Positions 11,314 through 17,372 of a DNA stretch of 64,000 bases are shown piece after piece (the first letter of the stretch is position 1; each line of letters opens with the position of its first letter). Both the position numbers and the translations under genes were made by a program. The notes beneath the pieces were generated by a model. It was not told the origin of the DNA. It saw only the letters and a program-made list of their open reading frames with translations, and did not search any database. The stretch lies in the NCBI GenBank assembly GCA_964016885.1, contig OZ024741.1:16988001-17052000 (forward strand), in the 5' to 3' direction. This DNA is from Eledone cirrhosa (taxonomy: Eukaryota).

Positions 11314-12056
11314 ATGGAAAGTTATATTTAAATTGTTGGGTTAACAACGAGTAAATATTTATAACTGATATAAAAGCACTCAACAAGTATTTGGAGTATA
11401 TTTATGATATTAAATAAATGGAAACTATATTTATAAAACCATATTTATTTCGTTATATATATTTCAGGGATATCATATTAACAATATGTTATGCCATCTT
11501 CAGACAAAATACAATATAAACAGTCTTATAAATAAATAGATACGACATACCTTTCAATCACCTTGCATTTGTGAGGTTGATTTGGCAGTAAAAATTGTGG
11601 ACAGTTGTAAAAAGAAAGAGATAAAGAGAAAGAAACGAAGAAAAAGAAATGTATGTGACTAAATAGAGGGATATAGAAAGATAGATAAAGAGAAGACCTT
11701 CATGTAAAGAAACAGAGAGAAATATATATAGAGAGAGGAAAAAAAAGAAAGAGATAGATAGAGATAGATAGAGAAATTAGGAAGTTGAGTATCGGTTGAT
11801 ACATTTATTTATTTATTTATTTATTTATTTAGCTCTAGTATTAATGTAAAGAGAGATGTATGTAGTTAAGAGAGAAAATAGCCGTTATATATAGAGAAAA
11901 AAGAGAAAATGAAAAAGAGAAAATGAAACATAACCAGACATAAACGATGCAGAATTTAAAACCGCTATGTTTTATTCGTAGAAAATATTAGTTCGTATAA
12001 AACAGGCACTATAATGTAAATATCAGTATTCATGAATGAGACATGTATCTATAATG
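11314..12056 (-). repeat. PLE 3' pseudo-LTR (direct repeat of 15471-16212)
   Basis: Near-identical ~742-bp sequence from atggaaagttatatttaaattg to gtatctataatg. Confidence 0.92.
11446..11511 (-). ncRNA. Minimal hammerhead ribozyme, copy in the 3' pseudo-LTR
   Basis: Reverse complement of 17265-17330. Confidence 0.8.
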
Positions 12057-13987
12057 TGTGAAAAGTAATGATCTTATGTCTAGTTTTTAAAAATTCATAT
12101 GTTTATATCATAATTATAAACAAACTCCCAATTCACACGAAAACATTCTCATTGTGCTATAAAAATTCAAGTATACATATATGTGTGTATATATACACAT
12201 ATAAATAGAGTCTATATTAATTTTAATTTTAACAATACTATTCTTGTCTTTATTCTACATGATTGTCGATCAAGCAGAAATAGAGAACAGATTTCAATAT
12301 ATTAATAAAAATAAAAATAAAAATATCAGAGACAAGAAAATAAATAAATAAACAGAAAACTAAAACATTTAATATTAAAAATAAAAAAATAGTACAAAAT
12401 ATTAAAAAATATTAAAAAATAATACAAATAAAACACAGAGATCAGCCTTTCAAAGTTAATTGACAATATATTGCCAAGATCATCATAAGCATCAGAGTCG
12501 AAACAGATAAAACAAAAATTGTTTACCAAATCCTGTCTAGCAGAAATCATTCCAAAAGTTTAGGATACCCAATTGGTCTACATATGTTCTTATATATAAT
12601 ATAGAAGTTTATCTAGTTTAAAATTTAATTCGATATATTTGGAGCATCAGCTTTTAGGGTAGTTTAATTATTCATGAAGAATGTTTTAATAAAAAGAATG
12701 TTTTAATAAAAAGAAGAAATCGAAAGATTTATCGGCTAGTTTCATAAATAATTACAAATCAAATCAAAACAAACATAACTACATTTTAAATTTAAATTTA
12801 TATTTAAACGTTGAGTTCAATCTATGTCTGCAGCAACTGAATAAATTTGTCCGTAGATTAAGGGAATTTTTAGATTTTAGTATAAAGAATATCTCCTCCG
12901 CACATAGGTCACATGTCTCAGAGGATGAATTAAAAGGAATCCCCCTTGAAACTATATTCCAAGTCGTCGAATATCTAACGTTATCATGCCTAAGTTGCCA
13001 GAGTACGCCTGATAGTGCTGTTGAAGATTTTTTGGATGGATCTGTGAAAGAATTCTTGTGGTTGTTATAGCGAAGTTTAAATTCCGTCGATGTAGAACCA
13101 ACGTAGTTAAAAGAATTAATGTCCGTTTTAACATTACAGTTGTATATTATATTTTTAACTAAGCAGTTGTTATTTAACGGACATTTAGATCTATCTCTAC
13201 AATTACATTTGTTAACTTGGATATTATTTATGGTATTATCGCTAGGTTTTAAGTTCCTGTTATTTATTCTATTAATATTTTGCGCTAAATTTTTGGTGGA
13301 TGAGTAGGTTAGTTTTATAGTATGTCTATTGAAAATTGAGTGATACCTATGTGTTCTAGGGAAGCGATTATCGAGAGCTTTAAAAAATAGTTTAGCAATG
13401 TGGGTTTTAATGTTTAGTGAGAAAGGGGGGGCAAACCATATTATATTCCTAGTTCTATTTCTTTTATGGCTTTTGGAATTATTGTAATGCTTTCTATTAT
13501 AGTTGTTAAGGTTGTGGCCATAATTAAAATAGTTGTTATTTTGTTTAATTTGTTTATCATTATCTATGTACATAATTTTATCACTATATCCTGCTCTAGC
13601 TAACGCTTCATTGTAATAATGGGCTTTTTCGTCGAAAATCTTTTTATTAGATGAGATTCTAGAGATACGTGATTGAACAGAGTTTACTATAGTATTTTTA
13701 ACAGATTTGGGGTGGTTAGAGTTAAAGCTGACATAGTTTAAGTTTTCATTCAACTTGTGAAATGGATAGTGAAGACATGTGTTGAGATTTAATGTTATAT
13801 CTAGGAAGTTGACTATTCTATGGTTATTCTCAATTTCTATTTTTAGATTAAAGTGATTAAAAAATTGTGTAATTTGTTTTCTTTTTCTATTTAGTTCAGA
13901 GTTATTATTATCAATAAGTAAAAGCATGTCATCTCTATATAAACCTCCGGTAGTACCAGGTATTTTCCTATGCAGCGAATTGATTAA

Positions 13988-14374
13988 AAATAAGCCCACA
14001 AGGTCAGTTACCTGAGCTGAGTCGGATGATCGCATAGTAATGTCAAAATTGTTATCTCTAACTGCTCGGGTCCATAGTTGGTCATTAAATTCTATCAATG
14101 TTTTCCTAGCCGATCATATAATGTGCATTTCATTGCTAGTTAGGTCTGTATGTTTGAATGCGTAATTTAGTGCCTTATTTAGTAGATTACACTAAATTAC
14201 GCATTCAAACATACAGACCTAACTAGCAATGAAATGCACATTATATGATCGGCTAGGAAAACATTGATAGAATTTAATGACCAACTATGGACCCGAGCAG
14301 ATAGCGATAACAATTTTGACATTACTATGCGATCATCCGACTCAGCTCAGGTAACTGACCTTGTGGGCTTATTT
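13988..14374. repeat. Fold-back duplication within the PLE RT gene
   Basis: 185-bp arms 13988-14172 and 14190-14374, 17-bp spacer. Confidence 0.92.
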
Positions 14375-14383
14375 AGTAGATTA

Positions 14384-14609: not shown

Positions 14610-15470
14610 TTAGTAGATTAGGGGTAATGGAAGAATAATAGTTAGCAATATCAAGTTGAATAAACTTATTATTATTGTTATATTTAATTTGCTTAAACCA
14701 CTCAACAACCTCACCAGTTCCCTTCCACAAGCTCAGGTTAGGTAAACAACTCAAGTTTTTAATTTGCTGTATCACCCTGTCAAGAATGTTTTTGCTTAGT
14801 TTACCCAGGTCCGATTTTGATGGTGCAATCAATCTGACTGGCAAGTCATTCTCGAAATTTCTCTTATGATCTTTCATATTGATCTTCGGTTTCCTGGGCA
14901 CGAAAGGTTGTGTTCTGTTCTCGATTTCCAACTCGTGCATTATACAAGATGCCTCAACATTCATTTTCTCTAGCTCGGCCTTATCTGCTACCTTGTACTT
15001 TTTGCTCAGTTCTTTTAGTATGAGGCCATTATACATGTCTTTCTGCACTCCATAGAGGTTGTTGGTCTTGTCAGATTTTACCAAGATCTTCTCAGTTTTC
15101 TCCAAGTTCTCAATATTATCCCTAATGCCTTTCAGATATTCCTGGCCTTTGAAGTTTCTCTTAAATTTGACTCCTTGTATGATAGAAATTATATCGTTTT
15201 CAAAGTCAGATAAAAGTTTGTTGGGGGGTGGATTTCTTTTGGATTTGAAAACTTTGTTTAAGTCCGAGACATTTTCATTTATATTAGATTTATCAAAGTG
15301 GAATGCTCGCCACCTGATTCTCCTTATAAAAGAGTCAGATTTATCTATTAATTGTTTTATAAAGTCTTTGTTTCTAGGTAGAGGTATGTCTTTTAAAGAG
15401 GAAGTAATCTTAAAGAATTCCATTTTTTCAGTTATAATATAAAGCGCTCAACAGTATTGGAGCAAGATAC

Positions 15471-16212
15471 ATGGAAAGTTATATTTAAATTGTTGGGTTA
15501 ACAACGAGTAAATATTTATAACTGATATAAAAGCACTCAACAAGTATTTGGAGTATATTTATGATATTAAATAAATGGAAACTATATTTATAAAACCATA
15601 TTTATTTCGTTATATATATTTCAGGGATATCATATTAACAATATGTTATGCCATCTTCAGACAAAATACAATATAAACAGTCTTATAAATAAATAGATAC
15701 GACATACCTTTCAATCACCTTGCATTTGTGAGGTTGATTTGGCAGTAAAAATTGTGGACAGTTGTAAAAAGAAAGAGATAAAGAGAAAGAAACGAAGAAA
15801 AAGAAATGTATGTGACTAAATAGAGGGATATAGAAAGATAGATAAAGAGAAGACCTTCATGTAAAGAAACAGAGAGAAATATATATAGAGAGAGGAAAAA
15901 AAGAAAGAGATAGATAGAGATAGATAGAGAAATTAGGAAGTTGAGTATCGGTGGATACATTTATTTATTTATTTATTTATTTATTTAGCTCTAGTATTAA
16001 TGTAAAGAGAGATGTATGTAGTTAAGAGAGAAAATAGCCGTTATATAGAGAGAAAAAAGAGAAAATGAAAAAGAGAAAATGAAACATAACCAGACATAAA
16101 CGAGGCAGAATTTAAAACCGCTATGTTTTATCCGTAGAAAATATTAGTTCGTATAAAACAGGCATTATAATGTAAGTACCAGTATTCATGAATGAGACAT
16201 GTATCTATAATG
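15471..16212 (-). repeat. PLE 5' pseudo-LTR
   Basis: Direct repeat of 11314-12056, ending 48 bp upstream of the ORF ATG (15423). Confidence 0.92.
15603..15668 (-). ncRNA. Minimal hammerhead ribozyme, copy in the 5' pseudo-LTR
   Basis: Reverse complement of 17265-17330; lies ~180 nt upstream of the ORF start. Confidence 0.8.
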
Positions 16213-17372
16213 GGTATCCTAAACTTTTGGAATGATTTCTGCTAGACAGGATTTGGTAAACAATTTTTGTTTTGCCTGTTTCGACTCTGATGCTTATGAT
16301 GATCTTGGCAATATATTGTCAATTAACTTTGAAAGGCTGATCTCTGTGTTTTATTTGTATTATTTTTTAATATTTTTTAATATTTTGTAATATTTTTTAT
16401 TTTTAATATTAAATGTTTTAGTTTTCTGTTTATTTATTTATTTTCTTGTCTCTGATATTTTTATTTTTATTTTTATTAATATATTGAAATCTGTTCTCTA
16501 TTTCTGCTTGATCGACAATCATGTAGAATAAAGACAAGAATAGTATTGTTAAAATTAAAATTAATATAGACTCTATATATATGTGTATATATACACACAT
16601 ATATGTATACTTGAATTTTTATAGCACAATGAGAATGTTTTCGTGTGAATTGAGAGTTTGTTTATAATTATGATATAAACATATGAATTTTTAAAAACTA
16701 GACATAAGATCATTACTTTTCACACATTATAGATACATGTCTCATTCATGAATACTGGTACTTACTATAATGCCTGTTTTATACGAACTAATATTTTCTA
16801 CGGATAAAACATAGCGGTTTTAAATTCTGCATCGTTTATGTCTGGTTATGTTTCATTTTCTCTTTTTCATTTTCTCTTTTTTCTCTCTATATAACGGCTA
16901 TTTTCTCTCTTAACTACATACATCTCTCTTTACATTAATACTAGAGCTAAATAAATAAATAAATAAATAAATAAATGTATCAACCGATACTCAACTTCCT
17001 AATTTCTCTATCTATCTCTATCTATCTCTTTTTTTTTCCTCTCTCTATATATATTTCTCTCTGTTTCTTTACATGAAGGTCTTCTCTTTATCTATCTTTC
17101 TATATCCCTCTATTTAGTCACATACATTTCTTTTTCTTCGTTTCTTTCTCTTTATCTCTTTCTTTTTACAACTGTCCACAATTTTTACTGCCAAATCAAC
17201 CTCACAAATGCAAGGTGATTGAAAGGTATGTCGTATCTATTTATTTATAAGACTGTTTATATTGTATTTTGTCTGAAGATGGCATAACATATTGTTAATA
17301 TGATATCCCTGAAATATATATAACGAAATAAATATGGTTTTATAAATATAGTTTCCATTTATTTAATATCAT
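16211..17372 (+). repeat. Inverted copy of the PLE 3' region
   Basis: Reverse complement of 11404-12571, followed by a long (TA)n. Confidence 0.92.
17265..17330 (+). ncRNA. Minimal type-I hammerhead ribozyme (PLE pseudo-LTR)
   Basis: Stem I UAUUUUGU/ACGAAAUA (8 bp); core CUGAAGA...GAAA; stem II GG-AUA-CAUAUU[GUU]AAUAUG-UAU-CC with a U-U at its base; stem III A-U closing palindromic UAUAUA; predicted cut AUA^ after 17322. Confidence 0.8.

What the first reader, a model, noticed from the sequence alone, without database searches (positions are those of the whole stretch)
11446..17330. Three identical minimal hammerheads in the PLE pseudo-LTRs, with an unusual U-U closure of a long stem II
Seen: 66-nt motifs at 11446-11511 (-), 15603-15668 (-) and 17265-17330 (+), with 8-bp stem I, core CUGAAGA...GAAA and a 1-bp stem III around palindromic UAUAUA. 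The stem II base pair, normally purine-pyrimidine, is U-U. Known: PLE minimal hammerheads with palindromic stem III cleave as dimers. Inferred: the two same-strand copies, 4157 nt apart, could pair and excise a unit-length RNA containing the ORF (~3.7 kb before the insertions), potentially circularisable. The third copy would cut antisense read-through.
Basis: partly seen in the sequence, partly recalled or inferred. Interest (0 to 1): 0.75.

Follow-up and report, generated by a model that had tools for sequence, protein, structure and literature searches.

The report
Hydra-clade retrotransposon hammerhead, relaxed closure
These are three copies of a hammerhead (predicted self-cutting RNA) motif in the end repeats of one young Penelope-like jumping gene, a known pairing; the odd U-U pair is real but already common in published relatives, and the mirror-image third copy is likely just a by-product of how these elements insert.

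Summary
Observation confirmed: three identical 66-nt type I hammerhead motifs in a Hydra-clade Penelope-like element with two direct and one inverted pseudo-LTR. The fold is supported by compensatory changes across sister families. U·U at 10.1/11.1 is not special: 14 of 25 Hydra families in Craig 2021 File S2 have it, Perreault 2011 reports it as the best-tolerated mismatch, and here it is a minority state (354 of 2,710 exact matches; most are A-U). Dimer cleavage and circles are Cervera's 2014 model. Genomic footprints fit it (50 of 65 upstream repeats cross the cut site) but also fit uncut templates; no cleavage data. 'Third copy cuts antisense RNA' is not supported: inverted arms are a routine insertion product (46 of 47 have one tailed end), and read-through is predicted to bury it in a 660-bp duplex. 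New details: a stem II C·C mismatch kept across families, and an extended stem I. This scan noted long-armed Hydra hammerheads before on other DNA. Low interest.

The parts
11446..11511 (-). Hammerhead copy 1 (3' pseudo-LTR of main arm); predicted cut after 11454; extended stem I spans about 11430-11532
15603..15668 (-). Hammerhead copy 2 (5' pseudo-LTR); predicted cut after 15611, 187 nt before the ATG
17265..17330 (+). Hammerhead copy 3 (inverted arm). U10.1=17280, U11.1=17310, C·C mismatch 17283/17307, palindrome 17314-17321, predicted cut after 17322
17244..17346 (+). Extended form of copy 3: distal stem I helix 17244-17253 paired with 17337-17346 beyond an internal loop (predicted)
   Evidence: 86.9% of cells paired; weak covariation, one recurrent G·U/A-U change
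11310..12059 (-). 3' pseudo-LTR, ending in the ~90-nt tail (11310 to about 11403) next to (TA)n
15467..16215 (-). 5' pseudo-LTR, 750 nt, 98.7% identical to the 3' repeat
16211..17379 (+). Inverted 5'-truncated arm (98.6% to 11397-12571), without tail, ending at (TA)n
12779..15423 (-). RT + C-terminal GIY-YIG ORF of Hydra type (RWR, DKT, CxCX5C, CxxC..E..N..CxH), broken in this copy by an in-frame stop at 14114-14116 and an insertion
14190..14609 (.). 420-nt insertion absent from 10 of 10 family copies compared: inverted copy of the adjacent ~185 nt (14190-14374) plus a dispersed-repeat fragment (14395-14507), between copies of an 11-nt word

Best explanation
The three motifs are one type I hammerhead, conserved by structure, copied three times in the end repeats of a single young Hydra-clade Penelope-like insertion; it likely cuts slowly and only when two copies swap strands through the 8-nt palindrome (probably helped by the element's protein), which would process multi-unit read-through RNA into ~3.7-kb units that may be ligated into circles. 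Shown: sequence, architecture, copy numbers, covariation. Inferred: cleavage, dimer use, circles. The U·U closure is a tolerated, derived substitution at a position that is relaxed in this clade, not a functional novelty. The inverted third copy is likely made when both ends of the target break prime cDNA synthesis at two fixed start sites about 90 nt apart, and has no role of its own. This particular copy cannot encode the enzyme.
For: Hydra motifs and (TA)n sites match Craig 2021 section 11; Hydra-1_Obim is visibly homologous by eye. Covariation on 13 gapless rows: 11 of 19 pairs change on both sides, 90.7% of cells paired, against 0-3 such pairs when slid. In 40 non-U copies the 43 unselected motif positions differ from the window by 2.4% (42/1720), against 9.3-15.1% upstream; the only 3 common variants in 66 columns are N7, 10.1 and a G-C to G·U change. 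Position 10.1/11.1: U·U 354 exact matches, non-U 2,032 (99 of first 100 are A), U7 group 324 (100 of first 100 are A). An A·C subfamily and G-C, G·U, U-A, C·A and further U·U families lie nearby. Long U·U copies nest among A-U copies in a tree with that site masked. Published: U...U in 14 of 25 Hydra families; natural U10.1-U11.1 and its tolerance. Architecture: 41 of 87 clusters on C1 (first 214 Mb) have an outward-facing inverted pair, 0 face inward, 5 have a same-strand pair; 46 of 47 two-armed insertions have exactly one tail. Template: 50 of 65 upstream repeats run across the whole upstream hammerhead, lengths 57-1459 nt, none at the 145 nt expected for an RNA cut there; paired repeats are closer to each other than to any other sampled locus in 23 of 31 (median 0.5% vs 1.2%).
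Against: No cleavage, RNA end or circle was observed. Rfam finds no hammerhead. Unconstrained cofolding prefers another dimer (-20.7 vs -19.8 kcal/mol), and the monomer MFE in context mis-registers stem I (-19.3 vs -18.8). The downstream flank is almost as conserved as the motif (3.9-4.5% vs 3.4%), so part of the conservation may serve protein recognition of the 3' end. AUA was the slowest of four triplets post-transcriptionally in ELVd. Metazoan PLE hammerheads cut poorly in vitro; the anole PLE hammerhead was dispensable for insertion and no read ends were seen at its site. In 6 of 31 loci the paired repeats are not each other's nearest, and in this window the 3' repeat carries five older-subfamily alleles that the 5' repeat and inverted arm lack, which a single monomer circle does not predict. 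The tree has artefact branches from truncated copies and needs 5 changes for the U·U label. Hydra placement rests on motifs; Pfam and PDB gave no RT or GIY-YIG hit.
Confidence: 0.75

Rival explanations
1. The hammerhead fold is kept mainly as a protein-binding or RT-positioning structure (or cuts only late, inside the RNP); the template is uncut multi-unit linear RNA and no circle is formed.
For: Element ends lie about 50 and 144 nt downstream of the cut site, so a cut linear unit cannot be the template. In the anole PLE, catalytic mutants insert normally and unprocessed RNA is the main substrate. The relaxed 10.1/11.1 pair and the AUA triplet suggest weak catalysis. This window's 5' repeat and inverted arm differ together from the 3' repeat at 5 sites.
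Against: Catalytic core letters C3, U4, G5, A6, G8, A9, G12-A15, U16 are invariant in 13 of 13 rows while N7 varies freely, as expected for selection on chemistry. Upstream repeats up to 1459 nt that track their own partner need a regeneration step that circles supply simply.
Confidence: 0.35
2. One reading: U·U is a special closure, and copy 3 serves to cut antisense read-through transcripts.
For: The U·U lineage did expand (354 exact copies, some with 745-codon open frames). Inverted arms nearly always include the hammerhead because it sits near the 3' end.
Against: U·U is published as the majority state in the clade. Inverted arms follow a fixed mechanical rule (46 of 47). Copy 3 has no same-strand partner and is predicted 66 of 66 nt paired to copy 2's antisense in read-through RNA.
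Confidence: 0.05
3. In the U·U subfamily the ribozyme is crippled, and the subfamily spreads without cleavage or in trans with A-U partners.
For: A-U to U·U costs about 2 kcal/mol per monomer and 3 per dimer in the model. U·U is the youngest state.
Against: U·U arose or persists in many Hydra families and in other families of this genome. It is reported as the most active mismatch. The rest of the motif is intact in 18 of 20 sampled U copies.
Confidence: 0.15

Closest known systems
Hammerheads of Hydra-clade PLEs (Craig et al. 2021, PMC8557442; passages, section 11, supplement parts 1, 2, 52 and a search of it seen)
   Same: C-terminal EN ORF with Hydra motifs, (TA)n sites, sense type I hammerhead near the 3' end, palindromic stem III; U...U around stem II in 14 of 25 families (two rows are the same sequence; 13 of 24 distinct).
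   Different: Stem II region is 31 nt with internal C·C and A·A mismatches, against 3-7 uninterrupted bp in the table. Stem III is a loop-free AU palindrome with U15.2-A16.2 (AUA triplet), whereas all listed Hydra rows have C15.2-G16.2. Unit is ~3.74 kb, longer than the typical <3 kb. Not the same family as Hydra-1_Obim.
Metazoan PLE min-HHRs (Cervera and de la Pena 2014, PMC4209133; text parts 1-2 of 4, supplement PDF parts 1-2 of 3)
   Same: Hammerheads in both pLTRs about 3 kb apart, opposite-strand pairs, long helix II, palindromic helix III, dimer and circle hypothesis. The Hydra magnipapillata row of Fig. S3 reads U...U.
   Different: No bulged nucleotide between 9 and 10.1 and no G10.1-C11.1; stem I is long rather than 2-5 bp.
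Natural U10.1-U11.1 hammerheads (Perreault et al. 2011, PMC3088659; outline, passages, sections 8-9)
   Same: Stem II opening with a U-U mismatch, stated to be the most active mispair (their ref. 27, not seen).
   Different: Not described there for a PLE repeat or with this stem II; the figure itself was not visible.
PAc Poseidon PLE of Anolis (Frangieh et al. 2024, PMC11167929; parts 1-2 of 4) and the typical Penelope layout (Arkhipova et al. 2013, PMC3846280; passages)
   Same: Two direct plus one inverted pLTR, an optional tail on one end, two RT start sites downstream of the hammerhead.
   Different: Tail is ~90 nt here against 30-40 nt; the hammerhead lies wholly in the UTR, not across the start codon.

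Membership tests
Type I hammerhead ribozyme | Core C3 U4 G5 A6 N7 G8 A9 / G12 A13 A14 / A15.1-U16.1 / H17 | tested here: met
   Invariant in 13 of 13 rows, N7 variable
Type I hammerhead ribozyme | Stems I and II supported by covariation | tested here: met
   3 of 8 and 6 of 7 pairs change on both sides; rows are related and hand-picked
Type I hammerhead ribozyme | Purine-pyrimidine pair at 10.1-11.1 | tested here: not met
   U·U in this subfamily; A-U in most sisters. A known tolerated exception, so not disqualifying
Type I hammerhead ribozyme | Match to an Rfam hammerhead model | tested here: not met
   None among 52 matches at E<=10
Type I hammerhead ribozyme | Site-specific self-cleavage | not testable with these tools
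   No assay possible
Dimer-dependent hammerhead | Palindromic stem III that cannot close in a monomer and pairs between copies | tested here: met
   8-nt palindrome; 100% of cells pair incl. G·U and double changes; model energies. Dimer cleavage itself untested
min-HHR of Cervera 2014 | Extra nucleotide between 9 and 10.1 plus G10.1-C11.1 | tested here: not met
   Columns 16/46 face each other directly (A-U 9, G-C 1 of 13)
Hydra clade of PLEs | RWK motif, DKT for DKG | tested here: met
   RWR and DKT in the ORF against section 11
Hydra clade of PLEs | CxCX5C linker; CxxC and CxH around E and N; no CCHH | tested here: met
   CNCRDRSKC; CDLC..E..N..CRH, read by eye
Hydra clade of PLEs | (TA)n insertion preference | tested here: met
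   Both ends of this copy abut (TA)n
Hydra clade of PLEs | RT phylogeny groups with Hydra references | not tested
   Reference proteins were seen only in a paper supplement; compared by eye
EN+ PLE insertion | Partial tandem with direct pLTRs, inverted 5' arm, tail on one end | tested here: met
Non-LTR retrozyme | Short non-coding tandem units (150-1000 nt) | tested here: not met
   Unit is ~3.74 kb and carries an RT-EN ORF

The most novel reading that the evidence does not exclude
Long-armed Hydra hammerheads of this genome form a structural subclass in which a conserved C·C (C·Y) mismatch three pairs out from the core of stem II, not the 10.1-11.1 pair, is the constrained element. It docks on the internal loop of an extended stem I or on the element's own protein, and this frees the core-closing pair to drift (A-U, U·U, A·C, G-C, C·A). 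The same family's fixed one-tail rule and self-matching repeats record reverse transcription of a ligated ~3.74-kb circle, a step never shown for an autonomous PLE in the papers read.
Probability: 0.25. Interest if true: 0.55.

Novelty: new member of a known kind. Interest (0 to 1): 0.2.

Why it matters
Little by itself: hammerheads in PLE pseudo-LTRs, their dimer model, the inverted arm and the U-U closure are all in print. Its use is as test material. Sister subfamilies that differ only at 10.1/11.1 (A-U, U·U, A·C) form a natural allelic series for asking whether cleavage rate matters to PLE spread, an open question since the anole element inserted without cleavage. If the conserved C·C mismatch is a tertiary or protein contact, it would explain how weak PLE hammerheads are switched on, and improve search descriptors that miss long, interrupted stems II.

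Tried and rejected
Rfam scan: no hammerhead model hit. Pfam and PDB: no RT or GIY-YIG hit. Sequencing runs: no RNA holder listed; this says nothing on expression. Contigs of X1-X4 laid on the motif show variation at N7, distal stem II, the palindrome and stem I, but list no change at 17280 although a loose end reads A there; not interpretable, not used. Alternative register 'bulged U + G·U closure' rejected because columns 16/46 covary directly. I first took the window's five shared 5'/inverted alleles as evidence against circles; a wider test showed most paired repeats match each other, so it stands as a local exception. (reference-projected allele sharing) was dropped: its 'shared' sites were mostly indel artefacts. 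alignment had wrong coordinates and was not used. Tree: 70 motif places dropped by filters, family B cut to 5 rows, short fold-back copies give false long branches; used only for nesting. No genome-wide count of the C·C class was obtained; counts come from 0.55-1.08 Mb of loci held. Lunse et al. 2017 (dimer cleavage of PLE hammerheads) was not held; known only through a review passage, and its variants may include this one. Searches for a cleavage test or C·C description in Hydra or cephalopod PLE hammerheads found none, in an open-access library only. Figures in supplements were seen as text only; bioRxiv 2026.07.22.740005 part 1 of 5 read, not decisive.
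Full report
Observation. The three 66-nt motifs are at 11446-11511 (-), 15603-15668 (-) and 17265-17330 (+), identical, with the stated stems, core and spacing of 4157 nt. My descriptor finds 5 motifs in the window and 0 in 200 shuffles. Rfam has no hammerhead among 52 weak matches, and the 111-nt region folds only modestly better than shuffles (z -1.88). Identity of the copies means little: 44 of 46 listed genomic matches are identical over 111 nt (40 of 347 candidates scored).

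The element. Self-comparison gives a minus-strand arm from 16215 to 11310 with direct repeats 15467-16215 and 11310-12059, and an inverted arm 16211-17379, between (TA)n runs. The ORF carries RWR, DKT, CxCX5C and CxxC..E..N..CxH, the diagnostic features of the Hydra clade in Craig 2021, and resembles Hydra-1_Obim by eye. No tree with references was built; Pfam and PDB gave nothing. This copy is broken by an in-frame stop at 14114-14116 and a 420-nt insert at 14190-14609 that 10 of 10 compared copies lack. The family is young: all 150 scored protein matches are 97-100% identical and several lie in frames of 736-761 codons.

Is the fold real? In 40 copies without U10.1, the 43 motif positions not used for selection differ from the window by 2.4% (42 of 1720), against 9.3% just upstream and 12-15% further up; the three common variants are N7, 10.1 and G-C to G·U. 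The downstream flank is nearly as conserved (3.9-4.5%), so the contrast is one-sided. A sister family found through a fragment at window 4500-4670 and two more distant motifs align without gaps. On 13 hand-picked rows, 11 of 19 pairs change on both sides and 90.7% of cells pair; slid controls give 0-3. The rows are related, so cells overcount events; the window type and the sister family alone differ by four double changes. A further 10-bp helix extends stem I, with 86.9% pairing but weak covariation.

The U-U closure. Exact patterns give 354 copies with U10.1, 2,032 with another base (99 of the first 100 are A) and 324 in a U7 group (first 100 all A): 354 of 2,710, with U10.1 plus G7 or C7 not covered. 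An A·C subfamily exists, and neighbouring families show G-C, G·U, U-A, C·A, A·A and again U·U. With the site masked, long U·U copies nest among A-U copies, though truncated copies add artefact branches. In print, Craig's File S2 has U on both sides of stem II in 14 of 25 Hydra families by my count; the Hydra row of Cervera's Fig. S3 reads the same; Perreault 2011 reports natural U10.1-U11.1 and calls it the most active mispair. So it is a tolerated, recurrent state. What is kept instead is the mismatch at the fourth stem II position: unpaired in 13 of 13 rows, C·C in 12, and C·C or C·U in several other families, including ones with 99-116-nt arms; other families lack it. I did not find this described.

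Dimer and unit RNA. Closing stem III in a monomer costs energy (-2.5 or -3.6 against -6.1 kcal/mol), and a strand-swapped double hammerhead scores -19.8, but free cofolding prefers another dimer at -20.7. The palindrome stays self-pairing in all 13 rows. Units in other tandem copies are 3745, 3747, 3772, 3779 and 4425 nt, matching 4157 minus 420. Only 5 of 87 clusters on the first 214 Mb of C1 hold a same-strand pair, so the window copy is one of the few that could dimerise in cis. Element ends lie about 50 and 144 nt past the cut site, so a cut linear unit cannot be the template. Among 65 junction-bearing insertions (60 of 130 matches, plus 4 earlier loci and the window), 50 upstream repeats cross the whole hammerhead, lengths spread from 57 to 1459 nt and none stops at 145. 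In the 31 with enough sequence, the paired repeats are closer to each other than to any other sampled locus in 23, tied in 2, farther in 6. This fits the circle model of Cervera 2014 and also uncut multi-unit templates, as in the anole element, whose hammerhead was protein-assisted and dispensable in vitro. The window itself is an exception: its 3' repeat has five older alleles that the other two copies lack, pointing to conversion, recombination or a two-version template.

The third copy. Inverted arms are routine: 41 of 87 clusters have an outward-facing pair and none faces inward; 46 of 47 two-armed insertions carry the ~90-nt tail on exactly one end (in a partly overlapping set 18 of 19 loci, the 19th holding two nested pairs that each obey). 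This is the typical Penelope layout and fits priming from both strands at two start sites (inference). A transcript across 15450-17400 is predicted to pair all 66 nt of copy 3 (plus strand) or copy 2 (minus strand) in a long duplex, and copy 3 has no same-strand partner. The antisense-cutting idea is not supported.

Earlier scan notes. Before consulting them I had the Hydra placement, the A-U sisters and the two ends. Notes on other DNA describe long-armed Hydra hammerheads and two-armed insertions with two fixed ends; the latter prompted the tail test and I reuse that reading. They are unchecked AI notes and not counted as support. That the host is a cephalopod is a guess, not tested.

Verdict. 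A new family member of a known kind: Hydra-clade PLE with a structurally conserved, untested hammerhead. The highlighted U-U is in print and the mechanism proposed is the published one. Interest 0.2; the conserved C·C mismatch and the natural 10.1/11.1 allele series are the parts worth a bench test.

Noticed in passing
window 27270-27500; cores at 27332 (-) and 27437 (+): Perfect fold-back pair of a second hammerhead family (U-A closure, 26-nt stem II region, 9-nt stem III) beside (TA)n; 33 identical 111-nt matches among 51 listed in the genome.
   Followed up: partly
window 21199-21295 (+), core at 21207: A third hammerhead-like motif with a 62-nt stem II region, A·A closure and palindromic stem III; a relative lies in L154.
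   Followed up: no
window 4460-4670 (-): 3'-end fragment of the sister family (about 80% identity) that has lost the first half of the core; the family has A-U closure and supplied the covariation.
   Followed up: yes
window 11892-12023 (-): The 3' pseudo-LTR carries five alleles typical of older A-U copies while the 5' repeat and inverted arm carry the young alleles: a mosaic insertion.
   Followed up: partly
window 13988-14374: About 190-bp perfect hairpin made by an inverted duplication inside the ORF; both arms carry the premature stop, so the stop came first.
   Followed up: no
L158 and related loci: A subfamily with A·C at 10.1/11.1 (19 motif places among loci held), which could alternatively fold with a bulged A and G-C closure as in Cervera's min-HHR.
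   Followed up: no
L011, L051, L146, L171, L192: Hammerhead motifs with 99-116-nt stem II regions that also keep C·C at the fourth position, with C·A closure.
   Followed up: no
window 11310-11430 (-): The stretch behind the hammerhead, including the ~90-nt tail, is about as conserved as the ribozyme and is predicted to form small hairpins; a candidate RT start signal.
   Followed up: partly
window 11267-11290 and 17495-17530: A 23-nt word left of the element recurs as its reverse complement right of it, there as part of a short palindrome; possibly an older fold-back fragment at the target site.
   Followed up: no
window from about 30800 onward: Tandem array with a 27-nt period, 58 register copies of a 300-nt reference at about 92-96% identity.
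   Followed up: no
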